NCBI GenBank assembly: GCA_963785725.1
Contig: CAWAWS010000007.1
Coordinates: 160,001 to 224,000, forward strand
Origin: an uncultured delta proteobacterium
GTDB taxonomy: Bacteria; Myxococcota_A; Polyangia; Palsa-1104
Direction: 5' to 3'
Length of the DNA: 64,000 nucleotides
The position numbers and the translations under genes were made by a program. Of this stretch, positions 6,721 to 30,576 are shown one piece after another. Position 1 is the stretch's first letter, and each line of letters starts with the position of its first letter. The notes beneath the pieces are model-generated. The model was not told the DNA's origin. It saw only the letters and a program-made list of their open reading frames with translations, and ran no database searches.

Positions 6721-8064
6721 CGACGAGAGAGGCGACCGCGCGCGTCGACACGCAGCTCAAGCCGCCCATCGACGCGCCGCTGCCGACGACCAAGACCTAC
6801 GAGCCCGACATCGTGCTCTTGGCGGCGGTGCTGGCGCTGGTCGGCTTCGGCGTCGTCATGGTCTATTCGGCCTCGGCCGTCTACGCGACGCAGAAGTTCG
6901 GCAGCGCCACCTACTTCTTCAAGCGCGACCTCTTGTGGGCCAGCGTCGGCTTGACGGCGATGGCCATCGGCATGCGCGTCGACTTCGGCGCCTATCGTCG
7001 CTGGTCGTACGCGATGCTGATCGCGTCCATCGGCATGCTCGGCGCCGTGCTCGTCGTCGGCGCGCGCATCAACGGCGCGCGGCGCTGGTTCCACGTCGGC
7101 GGCGTCGAGCTTCCAGCCGGCCGAGCTGGCGAAGCTGGCGCTCGTCATCTACCTGGCCTATTCGCTGGCGAAGAAGGCGGAGAAGGTCAAGTCGTTCACG
7201 GTCGGCTTCGTGCCGCACATGATCGTCTGCGGCGTCATGATGGGGCTGCTCCTGAAGCAGCCGGATCTCGGCACCGCCGTGATCTTGGGCCTGACGACGA
7301 TCATCCTGCTCTTCGTCGCCGGCGCCAAAGTCAGCTACATCTGCATCGCGTTCTTGGGCGCGGCGCCGATTCTGTATCAAGCGATCGTCGGCACGCCCTG
7401 GCGTTTGCGGCGCATGCTCGCCTATCTCGATCCTTGGCAATACCGCTACGACGTCGGCTATCAGATCACCGAGTCGCTGATCTCGGTCGGCTCGGGCGGC
7501 CTCTCCGGCCTCGGTCTCGGCGACGGCAAGCAGAAGCTGTTCTTCTTGCCCGAGGCGCACACCGACTACGTCATGGCCATCGTCGGCGAAGAGCTGGGCC
7601 TGTTCGGCATCTGCGCCGTCGCCGCCTTGTTCGGCGTGCTCATCTGGCGCGGCGCGCGGGCCGCCTTGCGTGCGCGTGACGCGTTCGGCTGCTACCTCGG
7701 CTTCGGCATCACGACGATGTTCGGCTTGCAGGGCCTCGTCAACATCGGCGTCGTCCTCGGCGCGCTGCCGACGAAGGGCTTGCCGCTGCCGTTCGTCAGC
7801 TTCGGCGGCTCGACGCTCGTCGTCGACCTGTTCGCGATGGGCATCCTCTTGAATATTTCGCGTGCGGCGCCCGAGCCGGCCGGGGCGCGCGGTCGCGTCG
7901 CCTGGCTGCCGCGCATCAAGTGGCGCGCGGCCAAGGGCAACCGCCGACTTCCCGGCGGCGGCAAGCGCGTCACCGTCGAGACGCGCGTGCCCGCCGTCGT
8001 CGACGCCGAGGCCTTCGATGCGCCCGCAGGGCAGGGTTTCGCCGCGGGTCGCGGCGAGGCTTAG
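6717..8064 (+). CDS. ftsW: SEDS peptidoglycan polymerase FtsW (one apparent +1 frameshift at about 7107)
   Basis: VMVYSAS and GARRW in one frame; SFQPAELAK, QPDLGT, LPEAHTD, GEELG, LPFVSFGGS in the next; removing one G at about 7107 joins them. Confidence 0.93.
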
Positions 8065-20750: not shown

Positions 20751-22142
20751 GTGACTGCCTCCGACGAACGCATCTACAAACGAGGCTTCTGGCTCGGCGT
20801 CTTCGACGCTCGATTGTTAGCCCTATTTCGGATCAGCTTCAGCACCGTCCTTCTGTGGGACGTGCTGGAGCGGCTGCGCGACTTCCACACCTTTTATACC
20901 GACCGCGGAATGTTCCCGCGCGCCACCGTCTTTCCCGGCCGCTGGGTCCAGCCGCCGCACTGGTCGCTCTTCGCGCTCGCCGGCGATGCGCCCATGGTCG
21001 GGCTGATATACGCTGGCGGCGTCCTCGCGCTGCTGGCGCTGCTGGTCGGCTATCGCACGCGGCTGGCCAGCGTCTGCTCCTGGATCTTCTTGCTGTCGCT
21101 GCAGCGCCGGCAGCCGAATATTCTCGATGGCGCCGATGCCGTCGAGAGCGTGCTCCTGTTCTGGCTGATGTGGTGCGACTCGGGCGCGCAGCTCAGCCTC
21201 GACGTTCGGCTCGGTCGTCGGGCGCCGCAGCTCGCCGTGCGCGCGCTGCCGGTCCGGCTCATCCAGCTGCAGATCGCCTGCATCTACTTCTTCACCGCGC
21301 TCGGTAAGAGCGACGTCAACTGGTACAACGGCGCCGCGCTCGGGCGGGTTCTACAGCTCACGGAGTTTGCGCGGCCGACGGCGGCTTGGATCCTGCGCTT
21401 CCCGACGCTCTGCCGGCTCCTGTCGATGGCCATCCCGCCGTCGGAGGCGGCGATCGGGCTCTTGATGCTGACGCCGTGGCGGCGTGCGCGTCAGCTGGCC
21501 GTCATGGCCGCGTTTGCGCTGCACGGATCGATCTTGCTGCTGATGGATGTCGGCATGTTCTCGCTCTTGATGCCGGCGGCGGTGATCATCGTGCTGTGCC
21601 GACCGGTGGTCGTGGAGTCGCTGCCGCCGCTGAGCAAATGGCAGATCGTCCCCGCCGCGTTGATGGCGATCGTGCTCGTCTCGTTGGCGCTGGAGCCGTG
21701 GCCGCGCGCCCTGCCGACGCCGCTCGCGCGCGTGCTGATGGCGACCGACCTCGGCCAGTCGTGGCCGATGTTCGGCCCCGATCCCGGTGGCTCCGACTAT
21801 TTCTGGCATGCGCCGGCCGTTCGCAGCGACGGCCGGCCGGTCGACGATCTGTTCCCCGAGATCGCGCCGCAGCTGCTGACGCGGATCTCGCACTTCAGCT
21901 ACGCCCGCTGGCTCAAGCTGCGCGAGGCGATGTGGTCGGAGCTGCCGCGGCGACAGGTCGCGGCTTATCTCTGCCGTCGCTATCTCGCCGACAGTGACGT
22001 GCCGCTGCGCTCGCTCGATTTGATGGTGACGCAGCGCTACATCGCGCCCAACGGCAAGACGCAGATGGGGCCGACTCGGAAGCTGCTACATCAGGAGTGT
22101 CTGCCTAGCCGCGACGTGAAGCGCGCGCCCGCCGCACGCTGA
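20751..22142 (+). CDS. HTTM-domain-like multi-pass membrane protein
   Basis: LALFRI, RxPxILDGAD, LIQLQIACIYF, WYNGAAL, HGSI...GMFS, QSWPMF pattern; start uncertain. Confidence 0.75.
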   Translation: MTASDERIYKRGFWLGVFDARLLALFRISFSTVLLWDVLERLRDFHTFYTDRGMFPRATVFPGRWVQPPHWSLFALAGDAPMVGLIYAGGVLALLALLVGYRTRLASVCSWIFLLSLQRRQPNILDGADAVESVLLFWLMWCDSGAQLSLDVRLGRRAPQLAVRALPVRLIQLQIACIYFFTALGKSDVNWYNGAALGRVLQLTEFARPTAAWILRFPTLCRLLSMAIPPSEAAIGLLMLTPWRRARQLAVMAAFALHGSILLLMDVGMFSLLMPAAVIIVLCRPVVVESLPPLSKWQIVPAALMAIVLVSLALEPWPRALPTPLARVLMATDLGQSWPMFGPDPGGSDYFWHAPAVRSDGRPVDDLFPEIAPQLLTRISHFSYARWLKLREAMWSELPRRQVAAYLCRRYLADSDVPLRSLDLMVTQRYIAPNGKTQMGPTRKLLHQECLPSRDVKRAPAAR

Positions 22143-24504
22143 GCGCGCCCACGAACGCGAGCAGCAGCAGCCACGCCATCCCCGACGACTGCGCGGGCTC
22201 GGTGCCGGCATAGCTGCAGCCGCCGCTCTTCTTCGGCGGCGCCTCGCCCATGTCGGGCGCGTCCTGACCGACGGGCGCGCTCATGTCCGGCGTGCCGGCG
22301 GTGCACTGGCAGCTGCCGGAGACGCAAGACGCGCTCGCCGGGCAGCTCGACATGGGCGTGCACGTGGTCCCGTCCGGCACGTCGCTGCCGACGCAGTTGC
22401 CGTTGCCGTCGCAGGCGGCGTTCTGCTGGCAGTCGTTGGCCAAGGTGCAGCTCTTGCCCTTCGCGGACAGCGTCTGCGTGCAGCTGCCGTCGGTCGCGCT
22501 GCAGCTGACCTCGTGGCAATCGTCCATCGGCGTGCACTTGGGCGTGCCGATGCAGGTGCCGTTCGTGCACGTGCCGTTGATGATGCACAGGTCGTTGGGG
22601 CAGGCGGTGCCGTTCTTCGTGTCGGTGGTGCTGCAGTTGCCGTGCTGATCGCAGATGCCGATCTTGCACTCGTCGCTGCTGCTGCAGTTCGTCGTCGGCA
22701 GCGGCGTGCCCGTGCCGTCGACGCACACGCCGTCGCTGCAGGTGCCGGAGCTGGCGTTGACGTAGCAAGCCGTGCCGCCGCAGGCGCTGCCGGTGAGCGG
22801 CGTGGAGACGCAGTCGCCGGTCTTGGCGTCGCAGCTCGGCGTGCTGTTGCAGTCGACGGCGGTGCAGCTCTTGGGCGGATACTGGCAAGCGCCGTTCGAG
22901 CAGCTGGCGCCTTGCGCGAGATGGCAGAGGTCGGCGGGCGTATCGCAGGTCGTGCCGCAGCCGCCGCAGTTGGCGACGCTCGTCTTGGTGTCGATGCAGA
23001 CGCCGTTGCAGTTGGTCTGGCCGGTCGGGCAGCAGAGGCCGCTGCTGCAGCTGTTGCCGCTCGGGCAGACGGTGCCACACGCGCCGCAATGGGTGGCGTC
23101 GGTCTGCTCGTTGACGCAGGAGCCGCCGCAGTTGGTCGTGCCGGTGGCGCAGCAGACGGCCGACTGGCAGGTGCTGCCCGTCGCGCAGGCATTGCAGCTG
23201 CCGCAATGGGTCGGATCGGTCTGCTCGTTGACGCACGTGCCGCCGCAGTTGGTCGTGCCGGCGCCGCAGCACTTGCCGTTCGAGCAGCTGGAGCCGGCGC
23301 CGCAGGCGATGCCGCAGCCGCCGCAGTTATTGCTGTCGGTCTGCTCGTTGACGCAGGCGCCGCCGCAGTTCAGCGTGCCCGAGGCGCAGCACTTGGCGCT
23401 CGAGCACGTCGAGCCGGTGGCGCACGTGGTGCCGCAGGCGCCGCAGTGGCTCGAGTCGTTGGCTTCGTTGACGCAAACGCCGCCGCAGTTGACGAGCCCG
23501 GCCGCGCAGCACAGACCCTGCTGGCAGGTGTCGCCGCTCGGGCAGGCGTTGCAGCCGCCGCAATGGTTGGAGTCGGTCTGCTCGTTGACGCAGGCGCCGC
23601 CGCAGTTGGTGAGGCCGCCGCCGCAGCAGACGCCGCCTTGGCAGCTGTCGCCGGCGGGACAAGCGGAGCAGCTGCCGCAGTGGTTGATGTCGGTCTGCTC
23701 GTTGACGCAGGCGCCGCCGCAGTTGGTGAGGCCGCCGCCGCAGCAGACGCCGCCCTGGCAGCTGTCGCCGGCGGGACAGGCGGAGCAGCTGCCGCAGTGG
23801 TTGGCGTCGGTCTGCTCGTTGACGCAGACACCGCCGCAATTGACGAGGCCGGCGGCGCAACAGACGCCCTGCAAGCAGCTATCGCCGGCCGGGCAAGCGG
23901 AGCAGCCGCCACAGTGATTGACGTCGGTCTGCTCGTTGACGCAAGCGCCGCCGCAGTTGGCCATGCCCGGCGCGCAGCAGATCCCGCTCGTGCACACGCT
24001 ATTGGCGCCGCTGCACTGAACGCCGCAGGCGCCGCAGTCATTGGCATCGGTGGTCTTGTCGTGACAGACGGAGTTGCAGCAGATGCCGTTGGCGCCGCAC
24101 GAATTGCCGCAGGCGCCGCAATTGTTCGGGTCCGACGTGGTGTCGACCTCGCAGTCGTTGCTGGCGAGCAGGTCGCAGTTCGCTGTTCCGACTGCGCAAT
24201 CGGTCAGCTCGCACTGGTAGCAAGTGCCGCCGTCGGCGGTACAGAGATAGTAGTCCGTCGAATCGCCCGTGCTCGGGCAGTCGGAGTCCACGGTGCAGGT
24301 CGACTTGCAGCCGAGGACGCCGCCGCCGGTGGGCTTCACTGTCGTCGCGATAGTGGCGGAATGCGGTACCTCGGCGCCTAAGACGGTGGCCGTGCCGAGC
24401 GGCGAATCCAATGCCTTTTGCGGCAGCGGACTGTCACATCCCGATGCCCAAGCGGCAAACAAAACGACTAATGCGGACGAACGAACACGAAATGAAAATA
24501 GCAC
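22105..24504 (-). CDS. Cys-rich repeat surface protein with MYXO-CTERM-like C-terminal sorting signal
   Basis: N-terminal signal/lipobox ASGC; about 11 Cys repeats; tail KKSGGCSY-spacer-hydrophobic helix-RRARASRR. Confidence 0.85.
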   Translation of the reverse strand: MLFSFRVRSSALVVLFAAWASGCDSPLPQKALDSPLGTATVLGAEVPHSATIATTVKPTGGGVLGCKSTCTVDSDCPSTGDSTDYYLCTADGGTCYQCELTDCAVGTANCDLLASNDCEVDTTSDPNNCGACGNSCGANGICCNSVCHDKTTDANDCGACGVQCSGANSVCTSGICCAPGMANCGGACVNEQTDVNHCGGCSACPAGDSCLQGVCCAAGLVNCGGVCVNEQTDANHCGSCSACPAGDSCQGGVCCGGGLTNCGGACVNEQTDINHCGSCSACPAGDSCQGGVCCGGGLTNCGGACVNEQTDSNHCGGCNACPSGDTCQQGLCCAAGLVNCGGVCVNEANDSSHCGACGTTCATGSTCSSAKCCASGTLNCGGACVNEQTDSNNCGGCGIACGAGSSCSNGKCCGAGTTNCGGTCVNEQTDPTHCGSCNACATGSTCQSAVCCATGTTNCGGSCVNEQTDATHCGACGTVCPSGNSCSSGLCCPTGQTNCNGVCIDTKTSVANCGGCGTTCDTPADLCHLAQGASCSNGACQYPPKSCTAVDCNSTPSCDAKTGDCVSTPLTGSACGGTACYVNASSGTCSDGVCVDGTGTPLPTTNCSSSDECKIGICDQHGNCSTTDTKNGTACPNDLCIINGTCTNGTCIGTPKCTPMDDCHEVSCSATDGSCTQTLSAKGKSCTLANDCQQNAACDGNGNCVGSDVPDGTTCTPMSSCPASASCVSGSCQCTAGTPDMSAPVGQDAPDMGEAPPKKSGGCSYAGTEPAQSSGMAWLLLLAFVGALSVRRARASRRG
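22960..24150 (-). repeat. Intragenic tandem repeats of 117-120 bp (39-40 aa, CVNEQTDxxHCGxC)
   Basis: Seven exact CVNEQTD copies plus variants; two adjacent units (about 23575-23808) nearly identical in DNA. Confidence 0.9.
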
Positions 24505-26709: not shown

Positions 26710-28040
<1,331 letters not shown>

Positions 28041-28057
28041 TCCAGTAAAGTAACGCC

Positions 28058-28627
28058 GTGCTCTTCCTCGAAGGGCTGGCGCGCCCACTCCTCGTCTGTC
28101 ACGCGATCAGCGCCGCGGTGCTCGTCGGCGCGGCCACGCATCATCTGCTGTGGTGCCGCCACTATTTGTCGGGCAGCTACGGTCGCATCAAGGCCGAGCG
28201 CCGCTTCGCCGCCATCAGCACGGCCGCGTTCGTGTGCACGTTCATCCTCGGCAACCTGCTCTACCCGACGTACAAAGTGCGCGTGCGCGCGCAATACTTC
28301 GACGACCCGAGCGCCATCGCCGCCGAGGTCAAGCTGCGCGACGCCGGCGCGCGCGACATCGGCATCGCGACGCCGCCTTTGCCGGCGACGGTGCGCTCGC
28401 TGTCGCCGGTGGCGCACGTGTTCGACATCAAGGAGCACTGGGTGGCGCTCGGCTGCATGGCGTCGATCGTGCTCTTCATCCTGTCGCGGCGCGCGCATCC
28501 GCGAGATCAACGCGGCGTCTTGCCGCTCTACCTCGGCTTGGCGGCGTTCCAATGTGGCAGCGCGTGGCTGGGCGCCGTCGTCGGGCTCGTGACCGCGTCC
28601 TTTCGCGCCGTCGGTGGGCCGTCATGA
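28058..28627 (+). CDS. Hypothetical membrane protein (about 4 TM, His residues in or near helices)
   Basis: Hydrophobic segments, GC-typical codons; ATGA overlap with next gene. Confidence 0.7.
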   Translation: MLFLEGLARPLLVCHAISAAVLVGAATHHLLWCRHYLSGSYGRIKAERRFAAISTAAFVCTFILGNLLYPTYKVRVRAQYFDDPSAIAAEVKLRDAGARDIGIATPPLPATVRSLSPVAHVFDIKEHWVALGCMASIVLFILSRRAHPRDQRGVLPLYLGLAAFQCGSAWLGAVVGLVTASFRAVGGPS

Positions 28628-28962
28628 CGGAGACGAAGCCCGAGCGCGTCTTTCTCGCCAGCTGCGCCGCGCTCATCGGCTACGCGCTGTTTTACGCGCT
28701 GCCGATTTACGCGCGTCTGCCTCGCATCTTCTACGATCCGATCGCGCGCCACTTCTTCATCGCCGCCGGCTCGACGCCGATTCCGATGGGCTATTGGGGG
28801 CAGATTTTGTGGGCGATGGGCGGCGCGCTCGCGTGCGCCGGCGTCACGCTCGTGCTCGCGCGCCGGCCGCCGAGCGCGCGCGCCTTCACGCTCGGCGCGG
28901 CCTGGACGCTGACGACGATCGCCATCGTGCTCGGCTATTTTACGTGGAACAACTGGCCGTAG
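28624..28962 (+). CDS. Hypothetical membrane protein (about 3 TM)
   Basis: MTETKPERVF...; hydrophobic; coupled to upstream gene. Confidence 0.7.
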   Translation: MTETKPERVFLASCAALIGYALFYALPIYARLPRIFYDPIARHFFIAAGSTPIPMGYWGQILWAMGGALACAGVTLVLARRPPSARAFTLGAAWTLTTIAIVLGYFTWNNWP

Positions 28963-28978
28963 CCGCTTCAGGAAACGC

Positions 28979-29006
28979 TTGCCTTCGATCGATCGACTCG
29001 TAGAAT
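28979..29006 (+). promoter_or_regulatory. Candidate promoter for histone gene, TTGCCT-N16-TAGAAT
   Basis: Near-consensus -10 ending 28 nt before the ATG; SD GGAG at 29024. Confidence 0.45.
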
Positions 29007-29034
29007 GCGGCCAAACCGGCGCCGGAGCGTTCAC

Positions 29035-29256
29035 ATGGCCAAGAGCAGCAAGCCCGTCAAGAAAGCGGCGAAGACCACGTCCAAAGAGATCCTCGTCGTC
29101 GGATCGAAGATGAAGGATGTCGTCAAAGCGGCGGGCTGCATGTCGTCGGCCGATCTGATCGAGGCGTTGTCGGCCAAGGTGCACGAGATCCTCGCCAACG
29201 CCGCCGAGCGCGCCAAAGGCAACGGCCGCTCGACCGTTCGCCCGTACGATCTGTAG
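29035..29256 (+). CDS. Bacterial histone-fold protein (Bd0055-like, short alpha3) with basic N-terminal tail
   Basis: EILVVGSKMKDVVK...SSADLIEALS...AAERAKGNGRSTVRPYDL; RxTxxxxD histone L2/alpha3 motif. Confidence 0.88.
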   Translation: MAKSSKPVKKAAKTTSKEILVVGSKMKDVVKAAGCMSSADLIEALSAKVHEILANAAERAKGNGRSTVRPYDL

Positions 29257-29259
29257 CTT

Positions 29260-30405
29260 CTAGCGATCCAAGAACGCGAAGTATTGCTCGGGCAGATCGT
29301 CGAACGTCGTCGGCGAATGGCAGGCCGTGCACGTCTGCGGCGGCGGCTTCTTGGCCGCGCCGAGCTCCGCCGTCGTCAGCAGCTTCTCCTCGTCGAGCCC
29401 ACAATGCGCACAGGAATAGGGCGCGAAGAACGACTCCACCGTTTGATGCTCGAGCAAATTGGTGATCAAGTTCGCCTGATGAATGAACGGGATCGGGCAC
29501 TCGAGCAGGAAGATCCGCTGCGTCTCCGGCAGCGCGCGCACGAAGTCGATCCACTTTTGCACGCTGTCGGACGAGATGCGGCGAAACGAGCGCAGCCGTA
29601 AGTACAGCGGCGTCGGCAGCTGCGTCAGCGGCGTCAGATCGGAGTCGGCGCGCAGCACGCCGTAGAGCTCGATGACCGTGCGCCCGGTTTCGGGCAGCGT
29701 GCGCCACGAAAACGGCCGGCCTTGCAGGAGCACGCGCAAATATTCGCGCAGCGCCGCGGCGTCGGCGGGCGTCGGCGACTCGAACGCCAGCGCCAGGCCG
29801 AACGACGGCGCGAACGACGTCGCGTCCACGCGCACGACGCGGCCGTGCAGCGTCAGCTCGCCGGTGCGGCCGGGCAGCGAGAAGCGAACGTCGAGCAGCG
29901 TGCCCGGCGCGGCCGAGCGGCGCGCCTTGAGCAGCATGCCGTGCTCGGAGAGGTCGACCGACGTGCCGATGTAGCTCTCGGCGTCGCTGTTCTCGGAGAA
30001 GACGTGGACGCGCACGGCGAAGCGCTCGTCCTCGCGCAAGGGCACGCCGAGCAGCTGGCCGACGAGCAGGCCGAGCACGCCGGGCGCGGCCGGCAATTCG
30101 ACGATGTCGGCGAAGCCGGCGGCGCGGGCCTGGCCGCGATCTTCGGCGGGCGCGCCGGCGGACGTGACGAGCACGACCGGGATGCCGAGGAAGCGCTTGT
30201 CGGCGCGGATGGCGGCGAGCGCGGACTCGGCGTCGCCGTCGGGCAGGACGCGGTCGACGAAGCAGAGGTCGGCGCCGTCGCGCAGCTTGGTGAGCAAGTC
30301 GTCGGTGTCGCGCGCGGTGACGAGGCGGAGGTCGCGGCGGCGCAGGAGGTCGCGATCGAAGTCGTGGGCCAGGTCAGGGTTGTGCGACGCGACGATGGTC
30401 TTCAC
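29260..30405 (-). CDS. Atypical receiver + PilZ + C-terminal domain with two CxxC pairs
   Basis: DLCFVDRVLPDGD (REC); REDER and DLSEHG (PilZ RxxxR, DxSxxG); CAHC...CTAC. Confidence 0.8.
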   Translation of the reverse strand: MKTIVASHNPDLAHDFDRDLLRRRDLRLVTARDTDDLLTKLRDGADLCFVDRVLPDGDAESALAAIRADKRFLGIPVVLVTSAGAPAEDRGQARAAGFADIVELPAAPGVLGLLVGQLLGVPLREDERFAVRVHVFSENSDAESYIGTSVDLSEHGMLLKARRSAAPGTLLDVRFSLPGRTGELTLHGRVVRVDATSFAPSFGLALAFESPTPADAAALREYLRVLLQGRPFSWRTLPETGRTVIELYGVLRADSDLTPLTQLPTPLYLRLRSFRRISSDSVQKWIDFVRALPETQRIFLLECPIPFIHQANLITNLLEHQTVESFFAPYSCAHCGLDEEKLLTTAELGAAKKPPPQTCTACHSPTTFDDLPEQYFAFLDR

Positions 30406-30576
30406 GGGGAAATGTTAACACATGGTTTGCCCTGCTCGGGCGGAGGCTAATGGCGACGGCTGGGGCGCGCGCGATCGTCCGGGCTTGTCGTCACCCGGAC
30501 GAGGCGACGACGGCGTCATCGTCATGAGCGGCGGTCTTTGGGGCAGCGGCTGAGCTGCTGCGCGCCCCTCGGCCGG

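What the first reader, a model, noticed from the sequence alone, without database searches (positions are those of the whole stretch)
29035..29256. Bacterial histone with a eukaryote-like Lys/Ser/Thr-rich N-terminal tail
Seen: a 73-aa ORF with SD and candidate promoter. Its core (EILVVGSKMK...SADLIEALS...AKGNGRSTVRPYDL) has the histone-fold pattern and RxTxxxxD motif. A 17-aa tail, MAKSSKPVKKAAKTTSK, carries 6 Lys and 5 Ser/Thr. Known: short-alpha3 histones such as Bdellovibrio Bd0055 are nucleoid proteins; similarity to Bd0055 is from recall. Inference: a chromatin protein whose tail could be acetylated or phosphorylated, about 1 kb downstream of ftsZ.
Basis: partly seen in the sequence, partly recalled or inferred. 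Interest (0 to 1): 0.85.

Follow-up and report, generated by a model that had tools for sequence, protein, structure and literature searches.

The report
Lysine-tailed face-to-face bacterial histone
This small gene encodes a real bacterial histone of the tetramer-forming "face-to-face" type with a floppy, lysine-rich front tail; such tails are already described as common in this family, so it is an ordinary new member whose tail function has not been tested.

Summary
The ORF, start, promoter and tail are real. The tail is translated: no in-frame start removes only the tail, and 118 of 120 homologues begin MAK. The class needs correcting. The best structure hit is Leptospira HLp (E 6e-10; Bd0055/HBb 2e-6). 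The protein has the face-to-face (FtF) tetramer residues R59 and N63, which bacterial dimer histones lack, and a four-copy model uses them between dimers. Published work already places FtF histones in Myxococcota and calls basic, 'H3-like' tails common there (PMC11390915). The tail keeps its charge (+5/+6 in 107 of 120) but not its sequence (43% versus 85% for the core). Ser/Thr richness is not conserved (5 or more in 18 of 120), and no eukaryotic histone matched the tail. This fits an electrostatic DNA-binding arm better than a histone code; modification is untested. The ftsZ link is order-limited gene order, and the gene has its own promoter. This scan has noted such tailed histones before (55 notes, at least 46 genomes). 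Verdict: new member of a known kind.

The parts
28979..29006 (+). sigma70-type promoter-like site (TTGCCT-16-TAGAAT)
   Evidence: 1 found, 0.2 expected; -10 box conserved in 10 of 10 family loci, -35 GCTTG in 9 of 10. Function inferred; no transcript start measured
29024..29027 (+). Shine-Dalgarno GGAG; the leader is about 17-42 nt shorter than in relatives, which have GGAGG or GAGG
   Evidence: the short leader is also in an independent short-read contig spanning 28929-29166 (record 7)
29035..29085 (+). 17-aa disordered Lys/Ala-rich N-terminal tail (net +6)
   Evidence: a near strain has a 9-nt in-frame insertion here
29086..29256 (+). alpha3 (face-to-face) histone core, E18-L73, with K27, R59, N63 and R65-T67-D72; ends one residue after the Asp
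26710..28040 (+). context: ftsZ, with two one-base frameshifts that look like assembly errors
28058..28627 (+). context: 189-aa hydrophobic protein of unknown function
   Evidence: no Pfam hit; only unnamed Atlas clusters at 0.90; syntenic in the family
28624..28962 (+). context: 112-aa hydrophobic protein of unknown function
   Evidence: read; syntenic in relatives; its Pfam/NCBIfam scans used a reference one base off and do not test it
29260..30405 (-). context: convergent receiver-PilZ protein
   Evidence: PilZ E 1e-12, Response_reg E 8e-5; syntenic in 10 of 10 family regions that hold the histone

Best explanation
A separately promoted gene for a homotetrameric face-to-face histone. It acts as one of several nucleoid proteins in this Polyangia/Myxococcota lineage. 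Shown here: gene, start, fold class, conserved tetramer and DNA-contact residues, disordered basic tail. Inferred from HLp and HTkC: two handshake dimers close into a ring through R59, N63, R65 and the C-terminus, and about 50-60 bp of DNA wraps around the rim without sequence specificity. Inferred from conservation: the four tails add about +24 charge and act as flexible electrostatic arms that raise affinity, or bridge and condense neighbouring DNA. They are selected for charge and disorder, not for readable sites. Incidental lysine acetylation is plausible but not needed for this model.
For: Best PDB hit HLp: E 6e-10 single sequence (HBb 2e-6, HTkC 0.03); 8e-16 versus 3e-8 by profile; ranked first by Foldseek though weakly (E 0.011). 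R59, N63, R65, T67, D72, K27 have the spacing of FtF profile positions 48, 52, 54, 56, 61, 16 and are kept in 119-120 of 120 homologues. Of 11 HLp DNA-contact residues named in PMC12701072, mapped through, 6 are identical and 2 are Thr-to-Ser. Four-copy model: score 0.88, best control 0.00, contacts agree at least 95%, pLDDT at least 89; the mark was reached by 20 of 30 solved homopairs and 1 of 23 single chains; the inter-dimer contact uses residues 58-59, 62-63, 65, 71-72. Tail: net +5/+6 in 107 of 120, acidic residues in 5 of 120, identity 43% versus core 85%, length 9-25; in-frame insertion in a near strain.
Against: No DNA binding, oligomer state or expression was measured. The model's pass may come from memory of HLp, HTkC or HBb, is probably dominated by the dimer interface, lies outside the tool's two-copy calibration, and lists contacts for one copy only, so ring closure is not shown. 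The monomer model is modest (pTM 0.44) and Pfam hits are below cut-off. HLp K54 and G29 map to G64 and A39. The gene is not found in 18 of 18 genomes of a sister family and is a truncated remnant in G035, and the genome has 6 HU/IHF genes, so it is probably not the main organiser as in Leptospira. The homologue set was gathered with this sequence's own words, which favours similar tails.
Confidence: 0.72

Rival explanations
1. The tail is a regulated switch. Acetylation or phosphorylation of its Lys/Ser/Thr residues by dedicated enzymes tunes chromatin compaction or recruits readers, as in eukaryotes.
For: MAK in 118 of 120, Lys6 in 87 of 120, a KK pair in 109 of 120. The genome has 2 HDAC-family and 1 sirtuin gene. 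A pure charge-neutralising switch would not need sequence conservation.
Against: Ser/Thr count runs 0-6, and length and sequence drift, even between strains. The deacetylase families are generic (9 and 10 of 14 control genomes). No SET domain was found in this 88% complete genome (control rang in 1 of 14). No modifier or reader gene was recognised among the conserved neighbours, though two are of unknown function. My 5 paper searches listed no report of a modified bacterial histone tail.
Confidence: 0.17
2. It works as a Bd0055/HBb-type dimer that bends or coats DNA.
For: HBb is the second-best hit (E 2e-6; 38% identity); HTkC R45A behaves like a dimer, so the two modes are one residue apart.
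Against: Bacterial dimers lack R48 and N52, and HBb has other residues there (alignment). This protein has both, invariant in 120 of 120, and the model uses them between dimers.
Confidence: 0.06
3. It is a division-linked nucleoid factor, co-expressed with ftsZ to couple compaction or segregation to septation.
For: ftsZ lies upstream in 8 of 8 family regions long enough to show it, and in G035 of another family. No convincing terminator lies between ftsZ and the histone (one weak 5-bp stem inside the next gene), so read-through is possible. HLp expressed in E. coli elongates cells.
Against: It has its own conserved promoter. None of the window's neighbours was found beside the histone in 30 of 30 loci outside the family, some of them short contigs. 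Unrelated housekeeping genes (aroE, xseA-like, leuB-like) are just as syntenic.
Confidence: 0.05

Closest known systems
HLp, bacterial FtF histone of Leptospira perolatii (PDB 9QT0-9QT2; PMC12701072)
   Same: Ungapped alignment over 61 residues, 23 identical; same short alpha2/alpha3, tetramer Arg and Asn, RxTxxxxD and most DNA-contact residues.
   Different: HLp's N-terminal stretch is shorter and not Lys-rich in the part aligned. Leptospira is reported to lack HU; this genome has 6 HU/IHF genes. HLp's neighbour is SMC, not ftsZ.
HTkC, archaeal FtF histone of Thermococcus kodakarensis (PDB 9F2C; PMC11390915; bioRxiv 10.64898/2025.12.06.692711)
   Same: Same FtF residues and short C-terminus; profile E 6e-5.
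   Different: Archaeal, no tail, about 31% identity; forms a hypercompact state not seen for HLp.
Bd0055/HBb bacterial dimer histone of Bdellovibrio bacteriovorus (PDB 8FVX, 8CMP, 9EZZ; PMC10627809)
   Same: alpha3 histone superfamily, similar N-terminal LVV-SK motif, 38% identity.
   Different: Lacks the tetramer Arg and Asn, is a dimer, has one extra loop-1 residue in the alignment, and has no basic tail.
Eukaryotic and Asgard histone tails; K/A-rich basic tails of bacterial nucleic-acid-binding proteins
   Same: Disordered, Lys-rich, N-terminal. In this genome 12 of 6602 SD-led ORFs have 5 or more Lys in the first 17 aa, among them an uS11-like ribosomal protein (label recalled).
   Different: No sequence match to any eukaryotic histone (weak tests on 20-22 positions). 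The tail drifts fast, whereas H3 and H4 tails are nearly invariant (established knowledge).

Membership tests
alpha3 histones (PMC11390915) | Histone fold with RxTxxxxD | tested here: met
   R65-T67-D72; PDB hits are alpha3 histones; Foldseek top 6 are HLp and HBb, though none reaches E 0.001
alpha3 histones (PMC11390915) | alpha3 cut to 3-4 residues; alpha2 4-5 residues shorter than in nucleosomal histones | tested here: met
   model: helix 38-62 (25 aa), 3-residue helix at 70-72; ungapped alignment to HLp
Face-to-face (FtF) histones | Conserved R48 and N52 (dimer-dimer residues) | tested here: met
   R59 and N63 at the right spacing, 120 of 120 homologues
Face-to-face (FtF) histones | alpha1 Lys16; no conserved basic residue at position 55 | tested here: met
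   K27 in 119 of 120; position 55 is S66
Face-to-face (FtF) histones | Predicted toroidal homotetramer, both dimer ends in contact | tested here: inconclusive
   four-copy model passes (0.88 versus 0.00) with the inter-dimer contact at 58-65 and 71-72, but only one copy's contacts are listed and like complexes are solved
Face-to-face (FtF) histones | Wraps about 60 bp of DNA; tetramer in solution | not testable with these tools
   needs SEC-MALS, EMSA, MNase
Bacterial dimer histones (HBb/Bd0055) | Lack R48 and N52; no confident multimer above the dimer | tested here: not met
   both residues present; inter-dimer contact predicted with error under 8 A
Nucleosomal (HMf/eukaryotic) histones | 10-residue alpha3, long alpha2, RK/RxT basic position 55 | tested here: not met
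   chain ends one residue after the Asp; HMf not hit by sequence, Foldseek E 0.45
Eukaryote-type modified histone tails | Sequence similarity to, or site-level conservation like, H2A/H2B/H3/H4 tails | tested here: not met
   0 hits for the tail, 2 unrelated hits for the tail profile (low power); tail identity 43% within close kin
Eukaryote-type modified histone tails | Enzyme-driven modification in vivo, with readers | not testable with these tools
   only gene presence checked: HDAC-like 2, sirtuin 1, SET 0; bromodomain and ZZ searches uninformative because no control rang

The most novel reading that the evidence does not exclude
These Myxococcota evolved histone-tail regulation independently of eukaryotes. 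Reversible acetylation or phosphorylation of the MAK..K..KK tail, reversed by the host's HDAC-family or sirtuin enzymes, switches a 60-bp tetramer 'bead' between condensed and open states. It would be the first bacterial chromatin shown to be controlled through a histone tail.
Probability: 0.17. Interest if true: 0.8.

Novelty: new member of a known kind. Interest (0 to 1): 0.25.

Why it matters
The FtF histones characterised in the papers I read (HLp, HTkC) lack a Lys-rich tail, and I found no test of such a tail in 5 paper searches. This 73-aa protein, with natural tail-length variants (9-25 aa among close kin, 6-8 aa in Nannocystaceae), is a convenient object for asking what bacterial histone tails do. 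But many equivalent proteins exist (50 of 94 singlet representatives examined have a Lys-rich N-terminal stretch), the host lineage is known here only from metagenome assemblies, and the idea is already in print. This copy adds a data point, not a new kind of system.

Tried and rejected
Downstream start removing the tail: rejected; the only in-frame starts ahead of the core are 29005 and 29035, and Met26 would cut the invariant alpha1 motif. Upstream ATG 29005 (83 aa): rejected; it lies inside the -10 box, and that box sits 43-68 nt from the start in relatives, in varying frames. Pfam and NCBIfam gave only sub-threshold or no hits for the histone; the reference I gave there for the 28624 gene was one base off, so that gene was not tested. 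Expression: the one RNA run laid (X20, contigs only, share 0.06) had almost no cover over the gene (depth 0 to 2.8), which shows nothing either way. Bromodomain and ZZ searches found nothing, but no control rang. Second histone in the genome: none found with the profile at E under 0.1 (genome 88% complete). Tree of 27 cores (doublets, signal-peptide forms, duplicates and a truncated row left out): bootstrap unsettled, 2 of 23 branches supported; I draw no order of events from it. Scan notes by sequence, by relatives and for signal-peptide histones returned nothing. The Atlas search of the 189-aa neighbour gave only unnamed clusters.

Full report
Observation. The window holds a 73-codon ORF at 29035-29256 on the + strand, exactly as quoted. 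Residues 1-17 have 6 Lys and 5 Ser/Thr. A GGAG lies 7 nt before the ATG. The only sigma70-like site in 27500-30500 (0.2 expected) lies at 28979-29006. Its -10 box is present in 10 of 10 family loci and the -35 GCTTG in 9 of 10. Differences from 7 relatives fall mostly on third codon positions. Short-read contigs from three soil DNA runs cover the gene with few changes; one near strain has a 9-nt in-frame insertion in the tail. ftsZ ends 994 nt upstream, with two hydrophobic genes between, and a receiver-PilZ gene converges 3 nt downstream.

Is the tail translated? The only in-frame starts ahead of the core are ATG 29005 and ATG 29035. The first overlaps the -10 box and is not a conserved start. 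Of the 120 best homologues listed (194 found), 118 begin MAK, and the ten family loci have GGAGG or GAGG before the equivalent ATG. AlphaFold gives pLDDT under 50 for residues 1-13.

Class. Against solved structures the best match is HLp of Leptospira perolatii (E 6e-10, 23 of 61 identical, no gaps), then HBb/Bd0055 (2e-6) and HTkC (0.03). The family profile gives the same order (8e-16, 3e-8, 6e-5). Foldseek on the modest monomer model (pTM 0.44) ranks HLp first, with no hit at E 0.001. Schwab et al. define FtF histones by a toroidal tetramer and by conserved profile positions K16, R48, N52, R54, T56, D61, and say that bacterial dimers lack R48 and N52. Here K27, R59, N63, R65, T67 and D72 have that spacing and are kept in 119-120 of 120 homologues. 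Of 11 DNA-contact residues named for HLp, mapped through the alignment, 6 are identical (S24, K25, K27, K31, T67, R69), 2 are Thr-to-Ser, and 3 differ (G23, A39, G64). A four-copy model of residues 15-73 scored 0.88 against a best control of 0.00 (contacts agree at least 95%, pLDDT at least 89; mark reached by 20 of 30 solved homopairs and 1 of 23 single chains). Besides the handshake dimer, it places residues 58-59, 62-63, 65 and 71-72 against the other dimer, the FtF interface. Like complexes are solved, so the pass may be from memory; the job is outside the two-copy calibration; and ring closure is not shown.

The tail. Among the 120 homologues the tail is 9-25 aa long (median 16), has 5-6 Lys in 99, net charge +5 or +6 in 107, and an acidic residue in only 5. 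Mean identity to this tail after MAK is 43%, against 85% for the core. Ser/Thr range from 0 to 6: 2 or fewer in 54, 5 or more in 18. This set was collected with the query's own words, which if anything inflates tail similarity. The tail alone found 0 PDB sequences at E up to 10, and an 11-sequence tail profile found 2 unrelated repeat proteins; both are weak tests. In this genome 12 of 6602 SD-led ORFs start with 5 or more Lys in 17 residues, including what looks like ribosomal protein uS11 (label recalled). The pattern is conserved charge with drifting sequence. I infer an electrostatic arm, not a set of sites for readers.

How common. A profile search of 1.84 billion representatives gave 1072 hits; I saw the best 150. 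Of these, 94 were singlets of at most 110 aa without a C-terminal extension: 85 carry the FtF motif, 50 have an N-terminal stretch of 10 or more residues with 4 or more Lys, and 25 of those also have 3 or more Ser/Thr. The profile included the tail, so this is biased upward, and some N-termini are mis-called. Tails of 30-42 aa occur, so this one is unremarkable. Nannocystaceae loci have 6-8 aa tails and two Bdellovibrionales loci 10-12 aa.

Distribution and context. The closest named loci (79-82% identity) are Polyangia/Myxococcales MAGs. One protein query found the gene in 11 of 14 other family genomes, one of these a weak 41% match. The profile, over genomes at least 80% complete, found it in 8 of 10 family genomes, 0 of 18 of a sister family and 2 of 4 of a third; one of those two, G035, is a 5'-truncated remnant. 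Of 11 family regions fetched, 10 hold the histone: all 10 have the receiver-PilZ gene downstream, and the 8 that reach far enough have ftsZ upstream. The ten family loci overlap this set and are not independent of it. None of the window's neighbours lay beside the histone in the 30 other loci, some of them short. In Nannocystaceae-type loci the constant neighbour is a P-loop protein that looks like TsaE (label recalled). The genome has one histone, 6 HU/IHF genes, 2 HDAC-family genes and 1 sirtuin, families found in 9 and 10 of 14 control genomes, and no SET domain was found. The bromodomain and ZZ searches were uninformative.

Mechanism. Most likely (0.72): a separately promoted FtF homotetramer that wraps about 50-60 bp without sequence specificity, beside HU/IHF, with four flexible basic tails that add affinity or bridge DNA. 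Gene, class and tail disorder are shown; wrapping is inferred from HLp and HTkC; the tail's role is inferred from its conservation pattern. Rivals: regulated tail modification (0.17), HBb-like dimer (0.06), division-linked factor (0.05).

What is known. [quoted passage not shown] Its Supplementary Figs 13, 19 and 20 show these tails; I could not see them (one file unreadable, only a review-file hit), so I cannot say whether this clade is pictured. PMC12701072 (passages, sections 6 and 13) characterises HLp as a tetramer that wraps about 60 bp. [quoted passage not shown] Five searches listed no study of tail function or modification in a bacterial histone; the library lacks most subscription papers. 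This scan's own notes hold 55 findings with these words in at least 46 genomes; the 8 shown all reached the same verdict. I had formed my reading before seeing them, and they are not independent evidence.

Verdict. Observation confirmed; interpretation partly supported (right about a tailed histone, wrong subclass, modification unproven, not surprising). New member of a known kind; interest 0.25. If regulated tail modification were shown it would deserve 0.8.

Noticed in passing
P0121-P0123, P0126, P0127, P0132, P0139, P0146, P0147, P0150, P0152, P0156, P0164, P0166, P0171, P0174, P0177, P0184, P0244; L057:5923-6345; L060:5932-6387: 19 of 149 representative hits have a signal-peptide-like N-terminus (hydropathy heuristic only) ahead of one or two FtF cores most like the Nannocystaceae type; P0127, P0146, P0156 (and P0142, not counted by the heuristic) also carry an RRM_1 domain. 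L057 and L060 are stand-alone genes. Exported histone folds were not found in one paper search or in scan notes. This may deserve more attention than the finding itself.
   Followed up: partly
P0268: A 239-aa patchwork protein with histone pieces plus short GroES-like and EF-Tu-like stretches (Pfam E about 0.003 each). It looks like a mosaic of fragments of abundant proteins, or a misassembly.
   Followed up: partly
window 26710-28040: ftsZ is split over three frames by single extra bases near 26982 and 27559. Short-read contigs lack the first in 4 of 4 runs and the second in 1 of 3 runs that cover it; relatives are intact. Most likely assembly errors.
   Followed up: yes
L082 (G035), about 6728-6860: At the same ftsZ locus the histone is a remnant: promoter, tail and alpha1 are missing. 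Pseudogene or assembly artefact.
   Followed up: partly
L054, L058, L062, L064: Tandem double-FtF (pseudodimer) histones in Nitriliruptorales/Actinomycetota loci; many more doublets among the representatives.
   Followed up: no
window 28058-28962: Two small hydrophobic genes of unknown function sit between ftsZ and the histone across the family and in G035; the first has only unnamed Atlas clusters.
   Followed up: partly
window 29137-29139: Cys35 in loop 1 is kept in 114 of 120 homologues and packs against T67 and V68 of the partner chain in the model; HLp has Phe there. A possible redox-sensitive site; untested.
   Followed up: no
window 22105-24504 (-): A 799-aa Cys-rich repeat protein with an N-terminal lipoprotein-like signal and a C-terminal hydrophobic anchor, typical of myxobacterial surface proteins (label recalled).
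   Followed up: no
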